Below are positions 10,855 to 62,920 of a stretch of DNA of 64,000 nucleotides, piece by piece. Location of the stretch: NCBI GenBank assembly GCA_951406725.2, contig OX597826.1, positions 26,784,001 to 26,848,000 of the forward strand, in the 5' to 3' direction. Below the pieces are notes generated by a model that searched no databases, was not told where the DNA came from, and saw only the letters and a program-made list of their open reading frames with translations. Position numbers and translations under genes: made by a program. This DNA comes from Octopus vulgaris. Its lineage: Eukaryota. Each line of letters starts with the position of its first letter. Position 1 is the first letter of the stretch.

Positions 10855-11067
10855 TCGCCATGTTGAATCGCTAGCTTCTGCACGCATATGTTTTCTCTCC
10901 TTGTTTCTATCCGTGTTTCTTTTCCGTGTATCTTTCTGTTGAAGAGCGTAGGCTCGAAACGTGAAAGACTTGTTTTATTTATATTCCTGAGCGCCATACT
11001 AATACAATTGTTTGTTTATACTCCACCTGCCTTCGTCTTTTCTTTATTTTCATAAAGCTTCCCGTTA
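10855..11067 (+). mobile_element. Penelope-like terminal-repeat remnant in (TA)n with decayed minimal hammerhead (10931-10968)
   Basis: tcttt-CTGTTGA-a-gagc gtag gctc-GAAA-cg-TG-aaaga; A6 and H17 are non-consensus; flanked on both sides by (TA)n. Confidence 0.55.
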
Positions 11068-11619
11068 TATATATATATACATATATATATATACAGTATA
11101 TATATAAATTTAAATAATAAGGGTGAAAAATAGAATATTAATTTGGTTAATATCAATTTAAAACCAGTGGCCTAGCATAATGAAAAATTTGAAGATTCAG
11201 AATATTTATATTACATACATATAAGGTGGATGACCACTAAGTGGATATCCATTATGCTAGAAGCAGAAGCCCTATGGTCTGACCACGAAGAAAATATCCT
11301 TTCTCATTCCGTCTTATATGTATGTATGTATGTATGTATGTATGTATGTATGTATGTATGTATGTATGTATGTATGTGTATATGTATGTATGTATGTATG
11401 TATGTATGTATGTATGTATGTATGTATGTATGTATGTATATATATATATATATATATATATATATATATATACATACATACATACATACATACATACATA
11501 TATACACACACACAATGTAAGGGGGTTTAGTTCTTAGTAGCTGAGCTGTTGCAATGAGACGATCTTCATTGTGAAGCTTCGCTGGATTGCTTCAAGTTCC
11601 GGTGTTAATTTTAGACTCT

Positions 11620-11995
11620 TGGGCCATGGTCTAGAAGTGAGAAGGTGACTGGAGAGCTGTGAAATGTAGTTCTTAAAGAGAATAATGAGGATAGCATGGA
11701 CGATGTGTCAAATGAAGAACTGATGAGCCGAGCTGCAGTTAACAGAAAACTACTTTGTAAGATATAGGCTATAACTGAGATGTTCGGTTCATCTGATAAG
11801 AAAAGAAAGCTTGGAGAATTGAGCGATGACCGGGAAGATTGATCGAAAAGAAGCAGAGGACGAAGAACGAAGATGACGACAGGTTGGAAGAAAGAGGCTT
11901 TAAACATGAAGTGAAACTGTTCCAGGCAACAAAGTACAGAGGATTGTGACATGACATGCTCAACTATACCCTACATTCTAGAGATGGAAACTAAA
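11620..11995 (+). pseudogene. Decayed 3' end of an RTE-type LINE ORF
   Basis: Frameshifted fragments FLKRIMRIAWT / VSNEELMSRAAVNRKLL / GKIDRKRSRGRR resemble the RTE C-terminal region (LRRILRISW..VSNEE, GK..GKR.RGR). Confidence 0.55.
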
Positions 11996-13329
11996 GAGGA
12001 AGCTGTGTAGTATGGAGATTGTTTCTCATGCGCAAAGATGCCGGTTCAACCCCATTGTGTGGCAAACTGGAAATATACTTTCAACTACAGCCTCGAGGCA
12101 AACAAAACTTGGTTTGTTTACGTCCCCGCAAGTCAAGGTTTCGGCAAATAGACCGTTGGCATAAGTACCAGACTTTAAAAGCTTCGAAGAGAGAGAGAGA
12201 GAGGAAGAGAGAAAACGTGTGTGTGTGATATATATATATATATATATATATATATATAGAGAGAGAGAGAGAGAGAGAGAGAGAGAGAGAGAGAGAGAGA
12301 GAGAGAGGGGTAGATAGATAAAAAAACAGATATAAGTATATATAGATATAAGTATATAGGAACTTAAAATGTGCGTTGTTATTTTTGTCTTTGTTACATT
12401 TTATTTAATCATTTCAGAAGAATCATGGAGCGTGAGGAAATATAAATGCACAATAATAATAATAATAATAGCAATAATAATAATAGTGAGAAGAAGACGA
12501 AGAAGAAGAAGAAGAAGAAGAAGAAGAAGAAGAAGAAGAAGAAGAAGAAGAAGAAGAAGAAGAAGAAGAAGAAAAAGAAGAAGAAGAAGAAGAAGAAGAA
12601 GAAGAAATAATGCATGATTGATAAAATATTTATAGTTTATGTATGATCGGAATTGAGCAAGATAATAACTTAAGGCGAGTTAATGCGTTAAGCAAAAAGG
12701 GGCTTTTAAGGGGAACGGTTAAAATTATCTAAAAGAACGCCATAGGCAGGTATATTTTCTTAGTTATCCTCATCCATGCTTTTCATCATCATCACCATCA
12801 CCATCACCACAGCTACAACGGCCACCGCCGCTACCACGGCCACCGCCCCACCAGCACCACCGCTACCAACAACATCATAATCATCATCATCATCGTCATA
12901 ATCGTCGTCGTCGTCATCATAATCGTCATAATCGTCATCCTCATCATCGTTGTCGTCATTGTTATTGTTGTTACTGTTGTTGTCATTATTATTAATTCAA
13001 CTCTTCATTCTTCATATGTCGCCAGGTGGTTTTATTATATTAGACGTGGCCGATATACCGGCCGAATCCTATCAAATTATAAAAGTAAGGTATCTATGTA
13101 TATTTATATATATATACGTATGTATGTATGCATATATATATGTATATATATGTGTATGTATATATATATGTGTTTGTGTGTGTGTGTGTTTGTGTGTTTG
13201 TGTGTGTGTATGTGTGTATGTGTATATATATATATATATATATATATATATATATATGTTATTTAGAGATAGTATTCCCCTTCAACACATCATATAAAAG
13301 AATTTTAATTTAATACTACTAATTTTTCT

Positions 13330-13422
13330 GCTACACGTGTTTCTTGTGGTTCATTTTACGGTTCCTTAAGCACGCAGTGTTTTATAGGAACCTTTCTTAA
13401 AATATAACCCCAATCATCAGGC
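13330..13422 (-). ncRNA. Type I hammerhead ribozyme motif, core intact, stem I weak
   Basis: Reverse complement: gc-CTGATGA-ttg..long hairpin..caa-GAAA-cacgtg-TA-gc; palindromic stem III; GUA triplet. Confidence 0.6.
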
Positions 13423-13624
13423 TTCTAAATAACTTTATCATAGTTCGATACCAAATCTCTAATAACATATATATTTCCTCATAGAGAATAATTTGAACCC
13501 CTGTGATGCCGGAATTGTTATTCCCTAATATATATATATATTTATATATATATATATAAATATAAATAGTAATGCAATACGAGAGTATTGCTTTCCAGTA
13601 AAGAATAGCCCGTGAGGGAAAATT

Positions 13625-59990: not shown

Positions 59991-60214
59991 AAATTAGAAT
60001 TTAAATTTAATATTAAAATGTAAACGTGCCAGTTGAATTAACCCTTAAAGTAAATCCGTTTTAGTTTATTTCTCTCTCCCTCTCTCTCTCTCTCTCTCTC
60101 TCTCTCTCTCTCTCTCTCTCTCTCTTCTATATATATATATATATATATATATATATATATATATATATATAGGTAAGAAAGTTGGTATGTGAAAGCACTT
60201 GGTTGAATATATAG

Positions 60215-60802
60215 AAAATAGTAAAAAGTGAAAAAACTACAGAAGGCTTGTTTTAAAAGGTTAAAAAATATATATTTGAGTCAATATGTCTGAAGAATGT
60301 TATAAATTTTTTTCATACAATGACATAGATTGCATTCCCAGAATACAGAATGATACCCTTTAGTGAGCACATTGAGAAATGCGCAAAGCAACTACTACCA
60401 CAATTTTTAATCTTTCCATTCTACCAATGTGCTATCGGAACACCAACACAAATTAGACTTAACAAGGAAACATTCTTCATTGAAAAATACAAGCCCAAAC
60501 TTAACTATTCCAACATACTTATACAGAGAAACTCAATCCAAAAGAAAGGCAAATAATTTTAAGCGATTATCTCCCTTACACCGGAAGAAATCACTTATTA
60601 CCTCCCATTATGTAGATCTCCGTTCAACGTAAACATAACGATTTAAGAAATTTGAAAAGCTGAACGCAAAACCGGTAATTTCTTCTATACTATGTCATTG
60701 TATAAAAAAAATTTATATACATTCTTCAGACATATTGACTGAAATATATATTTTTTAACCTTTTAAAACAAGCCTTCTGTAGTTTTTTCACTTTTTACTA
60801 TC
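60215..60802 (+). mobile_element. 5'-truncated Penelope-like element: GIY-YIG C-terminus, terminal repeat with hammerhead relic, inverted 5' copy
   Basis: ORF 60350 reads SEHIEKC...IFPFYQ...RLNKETFFIEKYKPKLN, the PLE endonuclease C-terminal motif R..E..FI....P.LN; about 60217-60328 inverts 60690-60801; hammerhead-like fold at 60645-60684. Confidence 0.75.
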
Positions 60803-61499
60803 TTTCTCTCTCTCTCTCTCTCTCTCTCTCTCTCTCTCTTATATATATATATATATATATATATATATATATATATATATATATATATATATATATATAT
60901 ATATATATATATATATATATATATATATATATATATATATATATACACATGTATATATATATATATATAAATACATATATATATATATATATATATATAT
61001 ATGTATGTATATATATATATATATATATATGTATGTATATATATATATATATATATATAATATATATCTGTTATTTTCTTTCTCTCACTCTCTTACTCGA
61101 TTTCTCTCTCTCTCTCTCCCTCACTCTAAGATGCATAACTTGGCTGGAGAAATTAACCACTCAACCAAAGCAAAAGGAAAAAATAATAAACCAGCCAACC
61201 AACGCTTCTATATATCAGTAATTATTCTATAGAAATTATTTTGTAGCGAACTATTTCTTCAGTAATCTTTCCAATGTAATTTGGTATTGCACTCATTAGA
61301 AAATACTGCTACAGTTCAGCCGGCTTCTGGTTTTGATAAACAAGGCGAAAATGTCTGTCAAAATACATTACACTAGTAATTTTTTACTAATGGCATTTCT
61401 CTACGTATACGATGCAAAATATTTCCCGTTTAGCACATATAAAACAAGTTTAATATTTCGCACGGCTACAGGTGATAGCGAACGTACCAAATCCTCACA

Positions 61500-62298
61500 T
61501 CTATATATATAAAACTCAACTTGTGTATCTGTGTGTGTGTGTCTGTGTGTTTAACTTCCCGGCACATCTCCTCCTAGCCAACAAATCGTAGAATCACCAA
61601 AAATGGGTCAGTTAAAGTTTAGGCGAATGAAAATTGAACTGCGCTATTTCTATTCCGAAATTCATCTCGCAAGTGCAAAAATCGATAATATGTTTGTTTA
61701 GGCCTTATCCCATTCATTGAATAGTCAGCTGTTTTACGTGAACTGTGTTCACCACGCGTGCAAGCATGCGTAAATTGCATGAAAAATAAAAAATCAAGAT
61801 ATAAAAACGAATCGCCGTAAACATTGTAGAAATTCGGCAAAGAAATGAATTTTCGAGATGTAACATGGAAGGTTTTTTCGTATTAATCGTTTTGACTTTG
61901 TAAACACATACCAATTGTTTTCATAACATTTTTAACGCTGTGAATTAAATGTGACCATTTTGCGTTGAGTCTGCAGTTTGAATCACTTTAACCAAATTTT
62001 AGCAGGCCGGATTTTGATCATCACGATACATCGCCAACGGCTCCCTGAAACTCTCCCCTGAAATCCCCGTTGAAAAATACTGATCTAAAAGTATAATTCA
62101 ACAATGCAATTATTTGATCAACAAAAATTTATGAAACGTTTCTACGTACTTCCTATTGGGGAAATGAAACAAATAGAGGGCATTAAATGCTTGATTTTAA
62201 AACCAAAATAATTTAATTTTAATTGAACTTCACCCAAGTTTAGCTTAATTCACGCGTGCCTAGAACGTACGAGCGCACGAGCCGGGCAATACTGCTAG
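61500..62298 (+). mobile_element. Non-autonomous Helitron
   Basis: A|TCtatatatataaaa 5' end; GC-rich degenerate subterminal hairpin, then CTAG|T 3' end; no TSD. Confidence 0.7.
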
Positions 62299-62559
62299 TA
62301 TTCATATATAATTTATGTTGACCTGTCCTGCGTTAGTAAAAACAAATTTTACAGTAAACTTCGTATGTAAACGAAACACCTTCAATGCTGTGATGATGTT
62401 CGTATATATATATATATATATATATATATATATATATATATATATGTGTGTGTGTGTGTGTGTATACATGTATATACTTTTATAATTTGTACATATATAT
62501 ATACATAGATATATAATTATGTGAGTATATGCAGGTAACTATCTATCTATATATATATA

Positions 62560-62920
62560 TAAATGAGGGAGGCACTAATTAATACCAAGTGGTTATATTT
62601 ATCACCATTTGAACGTGGAGGTTCTATTCGAACAAACGTTAAAGCCATAGATAATATAAGATAATATATATAGAATATTGGTGCAAAAGGCACTCTAGTT
62701 TACATCGCTAACAGGAAGATAAAGACACCCTAAAACTCCAGAGTCGAGAACACCAGGTCACATGGTTTCGACCTTCCTTTGTCTCATCGGTGACAGACGC
62801 TTGACTGCCAGAGATAACAGTTCCTCTCATAGTGTCTACTTCAGTAAACTTTCGTCTAACGGAACATCCAGGTTTATGTGAGGATAATATTACTTCCTCC
62901 CTCATTCTCTGTATATACAT
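62560..62920 (-). mobile_element. Penelope-like terminal unit with decayed hammerhead (62757-62794)
   Basis: Reverse complement gtca-CCGATGA-gac aaaggaag gtc-GAAA-ccatg-tgac (U4>C, cleavage triplet missing); terminus attaataccaagtgg resembles those at 18700 and 55060; (TA)n flanks. Confidence 0.5.

What the first reader, a model, noticed from the sequence alone, without database searches (positions are those of the whole stretch)
10855..62920. Dispersed family of hammerhead-ribozyme mini-retroelements (retrozyme-like, Penelope-related) associated with (TA)n
Seen in sequence: about 12 type I hammerhead folds (CUGANGA...GAAA...NUH closed by stem I) at 10931, 13330(-), 13745, 14234, 14812, 18410(-), 39665, 52220(-), 53981, 54389, 55277(-), 60645 and 62757(-). 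They are diverse in sequence but share topology, and most lie in short non-coding inserts beside (TA)n with direct or inverted terminal repeats. Established: Penelope-like elements carry type I hammerheads in their pseudo-LTRs, and metazoan non-LTR retrozymes are short tandem hammerhead repeats that yield circular RNAs. Inference: this genome hosts a large, diversified non-autonomous ribozyme retroelement system mobilised by Penelope RT/GIY-YIG, of which a coding remnant sits at 60350. An ORF-based annotation would miss it entirely.
Basis: partly seen in the sequence, partly recalled or inferred. Interest (0 to 1): 0.9.

Follow-up and report, generated by a model that had tools for sequence, protein, structure and literature searches.

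The report
Ribozyme mini-transposons inserted as two-armed arrays
This animal genome holds many families of short non-coding repeats with hammerhead-ribozyme motifs. The youngest sits in back-to-back arrays whose two ends always fall at two different fixed points of the repeat, which suggests a Penelope-type enzyme likely copies one small, probably circular, RNA from both ends of a cut chromosome.

Summary
The motifs are real, but they form a known kind of system and not one family. Only 4 of the 13 listed motifs are intact in the window. Eleven belong to families with intact type I hammerheads; one family has a variant core, and one is old and decayed. A sample of 60 ten-kb stretches gave 31 intact motifs against 6.9 in shuffles, roughly 10^5 genome-wide. 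The 60350 remnant is a Neptune/Nematis-type Penelope-like element (PLE), but it shows no detectable homology to the mini-units, so the mobiliser is unidentified. The best new result is the 18218-18889 element. It belongs to a young 533-nt non-coding family (about 1,000 loci by extrapolation) inserted in (TA)n as arrays of up to 13 units. All 32 two-armed inverted insertions end at unit position about 291 on one side and about 160 on the other. The rule holds in 57 of 58 such insertions across four families, the coding PLE included. One variant fills all 7 units of both arms at one locus and no other array. This is genomic evidence that PLE machinery moves retrozymes. Cleavage, circles and expression were not shown. 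The scan noted a similar, ribozyme-free array in another genome.

The parts
18214..18889 (-). Member of the young 533-nt retrozyme family (F533). Minus arm 18214-18813 covers unit positions 131-533, 1-49 and 125-291 (50-124 deleted) and ends at the 291 site in (TA)n. Inverted plus arm 18814-18889 covers positions 3-78.
   Evidence: (L001)
18406..18485 (-). Intact type I hammerhead: core CUGACGA at 18480, palindromic stem III ACAAUUGU, predicted cut after C at 18414
55006..55692 (-). Member of homologous 525-528-nt family (F528). Two-armed, ends at unit positions about 270 and 162. Window hammerhead (core 55339) has lost its 3' stem; family copies are intact.
14046..14469 (+). Member of homologous 530-nt family (F530). 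Inverted arm 14046-14110 (261 end) and plus arm 14128-14469 (166 end); intact hammerhead, core 14239.
13560..14000 (+). Two-armed insertion of a family with about 428-nt period; intact hammerhead, core 13748, stem III ACCGGU
13258..13534 (-). Two-armed member of another family; hammerhead core 13420 with damaged stem II; 3 of 7 relatives pass with stem I relaxed to 3 bp
14486..15012 (+). Partial tandem of a family with about 464-nt period; hammerhead core 14818 with a stem III mismatch; family copies intact with a long palindromic stem III
10856..11066 (+). About 210-nt SINE-like monomer with one variant minimal hammerhead (core CUGUNGA at 10936); 8 BLAST hits in 7 of 60 sampled stretches
11107..11260 (-). 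Short truncated arm carrying the end motif shared by F533, F528 and F530
39524..39740 (+). Decayed copy (core 39669) of the family also at 53835-54100; intact copy at L136
53835..54100 (+). Copy of the same family, core 53986, with GAAA changed to GGAA
51980..52350 (-). Older family member, core 52326, long loop II, stem III palindrome broken in this copy; 5 of 7 relatives intact
54289..54598 (+). Family member with intact hammerhead, core 54395; a relative at L178 is two-armed
60174..60805 (+). 5'-truncated coding PLE. Inverted 3' arm with the about 45-nt tail (to 60328), broken endonuclease C-terminus (60329-60612), hammerhead with U3-A8 core at 60649-60677 (G12 lost in this copy), short untailed end.
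62578..62905 (-). Old family member (70-77% identity to relatives), decayed hammerhead CCGAUGA near 62790

Best explanation
These are many families of short non-coding hammerhead-bearing repeats, and their paired insertion ends indicate they are likely copied into (TA)n by the enzyme of a Penelope-like element, most likely from a small circular RNA. Proposed cycle for F533, step by step. (1) A tandem locus is transcribed (not shown). (2) Hammerheads, probably as dimers through the palindromic stem III, cut out 533-nt monomers that a host ligase closes (inferred from PMC7229834). (3) A PLE RT/GIY-YIG protein nicks both strands of an AT-rich target (inferred from PMC11167929). (4) One DNA end primes at unit position about 291 and the other at about 160; the paired ends are shown, priming is inferred. 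(5) Each RT runs a variable distance, up to 13 units, through the hammerhead junction; lengths and read-through in DNA are shown, repeated passes over one template are inferred. (6) The two cDNAs join head to head, mostly with 0-6 nt of overlap; the junctions are shown. If one arm stays very short the insertion looks single-armed.
For: Enrichment: 31 motifs vs 6.9 in shuffles over 600 kb; 24 vs 1.9 at score 11 or more. Features the descriptor did not ask for: palindromic stem III in 13 of 24 vs 2 of 14; C at 15.2 in 19 of 24 vs 0 of 14. Stem I changes on both sides in 3 of 5 pairs across three homologous families, 91% of cells paired. Paired ends: 32 of 32 two-armed F533 loci among 69 examined; 12 of 12 F528 and 6 of 7 F530, read by eye; 7 of 7 distinct coding-PLE loci with one tailed and one short end. 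The same rule in the coding PLE ties the mini-families to PLE chemistry. One template per insertion: variants seen at two or more loci fill all covering units in 186 of 216 cases; 15 of 90 sample-private variants fill all units, 9 of them across both inverted arms. The 63T variant has 8 exact matches genome-wide: all 7 covering units at L034 and one 0.6-unit stub. No fixed 5' end, as expected for a circle. (TA)4 on both flanks at 55 of 69 loci; clear duplications at single loci such as L036 and L039. Circular fold z of -7.5, -7.1 and -3.2; longest ATG frames 54, 38 and 103 aa.
Against: No cleavage, circle or transcript was shown. 5' ends are not enriched at the predicted cut site (2 of 100 in positions 1-10, p=0.56), so DNA gives no direct sign of in-vivo cleavage. 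Ten of 90 private variants occur in subsets of units; L038 (no, no, yes / no, yes, yes) fits a multimeric template or later gene conversion better than a monomer circle. Privacy was tested genome-wide for only 1 of the 15 variants, and one assembly can miss a source allele. No autonomous partner with homologous ends was found. Mismatched C3/A8 cores are also above background (4 vs 0.67), so 3-8 covariation is not clean. An automated duplication count was not clean either (14 of 69 vs 7 in a mismatched control). In PMC11167929 ribozyme mutants did not affect insertion in vitro and both strands used the same start sites. Li et al. saw cleavage in only 1 of 9 tested dimers. About half of the 69 loci were selected by score, which favours young copies.
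Confidence: 0.55

Rival explanations
1. PLE machinery inserts the arrays, but the template is a long linear multimer read from an existing array, with hammerheads mostly uncut. Circles, if any, are by-products.
For: Explains paired ends equally well. Subset patterns across both arms at L038, L214 and L224. PMC11167929 found unprocessed RNA to be the dominant substrate. An unchecked scan note (e1-7881736) reports PLE-type arrays without any ribozyme.
Against: The 63T variant has no other multi-unit array in the assembly. Nine sample-private variants fill both arms. Array length would shrink each generation without a regenerating step (inference).
Confidence: 0.27
2. PLE machinery inserts one to two units; the arrays then grow and homogenise as DNA minisatellites by unequal crossover and gene conversion, the route discussed by Li et al. 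2026.
For: Some variants sit in adjacent units of one arm (L045, L048). Both arms could inherit a variant from one short template.
Against: An 11-unit run with zero differences (L031) and long arrays in the youngest family, against one to two units in older homologues. Interspersed variants, such as L235 units 2, 7, 10 and 12, do not form blocks.
Confidence: 0.13
3. The units are merely truncated ends (pseudo-LTRs) of autonomous PLEs and not independent elements.
For: True for the 60174-60805 element. Possible for families whose period I did not establish (52220, 54389, 39665/53981, 13330, 10931).
Against: F533, F528 and F530 are complete tandem units without coding remnants; the 40 best-scoring F533 candidates were arrays of the unit.
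Confidence: 0.05

Closest known systems
Metazoan non-LTR retrozymes (Cervera and de la Pena 2020, PMC7229834; Li, Clavereau and Pollet 2026, bioRxiv 10.64898/2026.07.22.740005)
   Same: Tandem non-coding low-GC units (33% GC), one type I hammerhead per unit, dispersed monomers to multimers, co-occurrence with PLEs. Circle-templated, PLE-driven insertion is already their proposed model.
   Different: Unit of 533 nt is above the 150-450 bp of the 2020 paper but within the 51-972 bp of the 2026 preprint. In the passages read neither describes inverted two-armed arrays, paired fixed ends or (TA)n targeting ('inverted' has 0 hits in PMC7229834). Neither covers cephalopods in what I read. Circles were shown there, not here.
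EN+ Penelope-like elements, Neptune/Nematis type (Craig et al. 2021, PMC8557442; Cervera and de la Pena 2014, PMC4209133)
   Same: Partial tandems, an inverted truncated copy, a tail often at only one end, microsatellite bias, minimal hammerheads including the U3-A8 core. The coding family here has RT, a CX4CxxC linker and a C-terminal endonuclease.
   Different: The mini-families encode nothing. Their two end sites lie about 97-131 nt apart rather than 30-40 nt. Both arms can be multimeric. The one-end-tailed pattern is strict (57 of 58), not merely frequent.
Anolis Poseidon in vitro (Frangieh et al. 2024, PMC11167929)
   Same: Two internal RT start sites that define the tail; both target strands nicked and extended; AT-rich targets.
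   Different: There the two strands showed no difference in start site; here each two-armed insertion uses both sites, one per end.
Non-autonomous Chlamys elements such as MRC1 (PMC8557442)
   Same: Non-coding PLE parasites with multicopy head-to-tail insertions.
   Different: Green algae; that clade lacks canonical hammerheads; they resemble their partner's 3' end, whereas no partner was found here.

Membership tests
Type I hammerhead ribozyme | Core CUGANGA...GAAA...UH (or U3-A8) with stems I-III, stem I open | tested here: met
   4 of 13 window copies, 11 of 13 at family level; not met for the U6 family at 10931 or for the 7 relatives of 62757
Type I hammerhead ribozyme | Above chance, with compensatory stem changes | tested here: met
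   31 vs 6.9; stem I changes on both sides in 3 of 5 pairs (7 sequences from 3 families, stems II and III out of register for F530)
Type I hammerhead ribozyme | Self-cleavage | not testable with these tools
   No assay; 5' ends not enriched at the cut site
Metazoan non-LTR retrozyme | Tandem units each with a type I hammerhead | tested here: met
   F533 up to 13 units per arm; F528 and F530 dimers
Metazoan non-LTR retrozyme | Non-coding, low GC, no LTR structure | tested here: met
   33% GC, longest ATG frames 54, 38, 103 aa; no match to the PLE protein; PBS and PPT were not searched for
Metazoan non-LTR retrozyme | Expressed as linear and circular monomers | not testable with these tools
   No holder on record as RNA; only contigs were available
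Metazoan non-LTR retrozyme | Target-site duplications longer than 4 bp when present | tested here: inconclusive
   Clear at L036 (10 bp) and L039 (about 60 bp); bulk count 14 of 69 vs control 7
Non-autonomous PLE | PLE insertion signature: partial tandems, inversion, two fixed 3' ends | tested here: met
   50 of 51 two-armed mini-family loci, same rule in 7 of 7 coding loci
Non-autonomous PLE | End homology to an autonomous PLE | tested here: inconclusive
   No match to the one coding family examined; other PLE families were not surveyed
EN+ PLE, Neptune/Nematis type (60174-60805 family) | Single ORF with RT, CX2-5CxxC linker and C-terminal GIY-YIG-type endonuclease | tested here: met
   801-aa frame at L279; motifs read by eye; Pfam RVT_1 E=1e-4, below cutoff, and no Pfam GIY-YIG hit
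EN+ PLE, Neptune/Nematis type (60174-60805 family) | Placement in the clade by RT phylogeny | not tested
   No reference set was available
Catalogued Dfam/Repbase family | Match to a library entry | not testable with these tools
   Libraries not held

The most novel reading that the evidence does not exclude
Each insertion records one PLE enzyme pair working on one 533-nt ribozyme-made RNA circle. The two nicked DNA ends are primed at two obligately different sites, and each RT rolls round the circle up to 13 times before the cDNAs are joined. This would be a genomic record of rolling-circle reverse transcription by Penelope machinery, and would give a simple rule explaining PLE tails, inversions and tandems.
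Probability: 0.4. Interest if true: 0.72.

Novelty: new variant of a known kind. Interest (0 to 1): 0.5.

Why it matters
How retrozymes get back into the genome, and how PLEs make their tandem, inverted and tailed insertions, are both stated as open in the papers read (PMC7229834, PMC8557442, PMC11167929, the 2026 preprint). F533 is young, has about 1,000 loci by extrapolation, and is only 533 nt. It therefore offers a ready template with two mapped end sites and sharp predictions. The genome also seems to hold about 10^5 intact hammerhead motifs, similar in number to the axolotl count of 126,247 in PMC7229834 (different descriptor, roughly tenfold larger genome). A 2026 Octopus vulgaris repeat annotation does not mention ribozymes in its main text.

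Tried and rejected
(1) Rfam scan: the 150 listed rows were microsatellite-driven miRNA matches, with 254 rows not shown; uninformative. The repeat finder was likewise swamped. (2) My early idea that inverted arms stop at the hammerhead cut site was partly an artefact of breaking the reference at that site. With an 11-unit natural reference only 2 of 100 5' ends fell in positions 1-10; rejected. (3) Expression: no RNA holder listed. Contigs of four runs guessed to be RNA cover the unit, and one is 563 nt, that is 533+30. A tandem array in DNA would give the same, so I do not use it as evidence. (4) Partner search: end-motif and tblastn scans of held loci and BLAST against the coding family found no homologous autonomous element. 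The protein search returned only the 150 closest copies of one family among 18,669 first-look candidates. (5) The bulk target-duplication count failed its control. (6) Extra window candidates at 8914, 14711 and 63696: 8914 and 63696 had no relatives in held loci; 14711 is part of the 14818 unit and its relatives do not keep a canonical core; not counted. (7) Lunse et al. 2017 is not held, so I could not check whether the U6 core variant is described there.
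Full report
Setting. The window is G000:C13:26784001-26848000 in a 2.8-Gb assembly of 227 contigs. It is very rich in microsatellites. I infer an octopus-like genome from size, about 30 chromosome-scale contigs and recall of such genomes; this was not tested.

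Checking the observation. All 13 coordinates hold a hammerhead-like motif. A type I descriptor (core CUGANGA or UUGANAA, GAAA, UH, stems I-III) passes 4 window motifs, against a shuffle mean of 0.6, with 1 of 100 shuffles reaching 4. The window alone is therefore modest evidence. I took 60 ten-kb stretches at round coordinates on C1-C27. They gave 31 motifs against 6.9 in 10 shuffles (maximum 10), and 24 against 1.9 at score 11 or more. By my arithmetic that is about 37 per Mb, or about 10^5 genome-wide (Poisson range roughly 6x10^4 to 1.6x10^5). Features not required by the descriptor were enriched: palindromic stem III in 13 of 24 vs 2 of 14, and C at 15.2 in 19 of 24 vs 0 of 14. C3-G8 cores were 17 vs 0.17 and U3-A8 7 vs 2.2, but mismatched C3/A8 were also 4 vs 0.67. 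The 144 distinct high-scoring motifs in the loci held at that point fell into 45 clusters.

Motif by motif. Genome searches showed dispersed families for the units at 18410, 60645 (28), 55277 (32), 13745 (36), 14234 (37), 14812 (40), 13330 (41), 62757 (42) and 52220 (52); each search scored only the 40 best candidates. The units at 10931, 39665/53981 and 54389 were checked against held loci only. Eleven of 13 motifs belong to families with descriptor-passing copies (13330 only with stem I relaxed to 3 bp). The 10931 family is a 210-nt monomer with core CUGUNGA. Position 7 varies among copies, as a free N7 should. Its activity is doubtful, and as a monomer it is SINE-like rather than a retrozyme. 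The 62757 family is old, and 0 of 7 relatives passed.

The coding remnant. 60329-60612 matches the end of an 801-aa natural frame at L279. That frame has an RT (Pfam RVT_1 E=1e-4, below cutoff), a CX4CxxC linker and a C-terminal endonuclease; Pfam gave no GIY-YIG hit, so that label rests on motifs read by eye. PMC8557442 ties such a linker to Neptune and Nematis. Its hammerhead has the U3-A8 core described in PMC4209133. It shows no BLAST homology to 11 mini-units, so it is a relative in mechanism, not the demonstrated driver.

F533. The 18214-18889 element matches a 533-nt unit arranged in tandem arrays across the genome. A 22-mer of the unit has 2,733 exact matches and 0 for the reversed control. 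The first 100 fall in 35 loci, which extrapolates to about 950-1,000 loci. I mapped 69 loci: 35 chosen by score and 35 consecutive on C1, one shared. Thirty-two have two inverted arms with both 3' ends facing outward, 36 have one arm, and 1 is broken by Ns. In 32 of 32 two-armed loci one end lies at unit position 283-295 and the other at 155-200; ends above about 163 appear to be alignment run-on into (TA)n. Position 1 is the base after the predicted cut. Arms run from 0.2 to 12.8 units. Among one-armed loci, 8 of 22 with the 160 end carry the 291-type palindromic motif at the other junction, against 0 of 13 with the 291 end; in 5 of the 8 the motif is part of the unit itself. Several 160 ends show short re-copied ATTTT stutters. 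F528 and F530 are homologues at 46-58%. They follow the same rule in 12 of 12 and 6 of 7 two-armed loci, out of 15 and 10 loci read by eye. The coding PLE follows it in 7 of 7 distinct loci, with a tail of about 45 nt. Stem I covaries across the three homologues; relatedness inflates the shuffle statistic, and stems II and III were out of register for F530.

Template. Variants seen at two or more loci fill all covering units in 186 of 216 cases. Of 90 variants private within the 69 loci, 65 are single, 10 are subsets and 15 fill all units, 9 of these across both arms. I tested one of the 15 genome-wide. It has 8 matches: all 7 covering units at L034 and a 0.6-unit stub that lacks a full unit. 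This favours repeated copying of one unit, by a circle or by template jumping, which DNA cannot tell apart. Against it, subset patterns at L038, L214 and L224 span both arms and fit a multimeric template or conversion. 5' ends are spread round the unit with no peak at the cut site. The units fold far better than shuffles, and in the circular minimum-energy folds the complete hammerhead is not formed.

Literature, and what I saw of it. PMC4209133: parts 1-2 of 4; it already proposes circles as templates for more-than-unit copies. PMC7229834: passages and the Discussion. PMC8557442: passages. PMC11167929: parts 1-2 of 4. bioRxiv 10.64898/2026.07.22.740005: parts 1-3 of 5; its supplements are closed. 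PMC13282606: passages, with 0 hits for ribozyme or hammerhead in the main text; its repeat library was not seen and may already hold these units as unclassified repeats. PMC11722881: passages. Lunse 2017: title only. Eight searches found no paper on cephalopod retrozymes or on strictly paired ends in retrozyme arrays. The library lacks most subscription journals, and older PLE papers may describe the pairing.

Verdict. The units work like non-autonomous PLE passengers and meet the DNA-level criteria for non-LTR retrozymes; the RNA-level criteria are untested. I put PLE-type insertion at about 0.9 and a monomer circle as the main template at about 0.55. It is a new variant of a known kind. Its value lies in the strict two-site, two-arm rule and in a young family that makes the mechanism testable. 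Interest 0.5.

Noticed in passing
window 26508-30193 (- strand): Broken LINE with AP-endonuclease-like and RT frames and a C-terminal zinc-finger-like stretch (Pfam RVT_1 E=1.6e-6); RTE-like by recall only.
   Followed up: partly
window 10856-11066 and relatives: High-copy 210-nt SINE-like family (8 hits in 600 kb, roughly 4x10^4 genome-wide by extrapolation) with a similar 5' start among copies and a hammerhead whose core has U6; may be an inactive or variant ribozyme SINE moved by PLEs.
   Followed up: partly
window 15138-15266: Near-perfect 129-nt palindrome (95%) directly before (TA)n; may be a very short two-armed insertion or a MITE.
   Followed up: no
L235, L032, L224, L046: The same substitution recurs in non-adjacent units of one array (for example 247C in units 2, 7, 10, 12 of L235). 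This could be repeated misreading of one modified template base, or gene conversion.
   Followed up: partly
L283:3236-159 (-) and L281:4540-5745 (+): Open frames of 1,026 aa and 402 aa beside PLE copies; not identified.
   Followed up: no
window 628-1196, 6775-8604, 23120-23268, 34755-34813, 38893-39008, 51131-51275, 59299-59412, 59822-59990: Many copies of one abundant 100-165-nt SINE-like repeat at 70-83% identity.
   Followed up: no
window 60290 (+) and 60729 (-): A second, decayed CUGAAGA...GACA hammerhead-like fold on the antisense strand of the coding PLE's 3' end; meaning unknown.
   Followed up: no
L052:3-827, L256, L064, L130: Fragments of a more distant PLE family (28-35% identity to the 801-aa frame; Pfam GIY-YIG E=0.002 for L052); other candidate partners exist.
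   Followed up: partly
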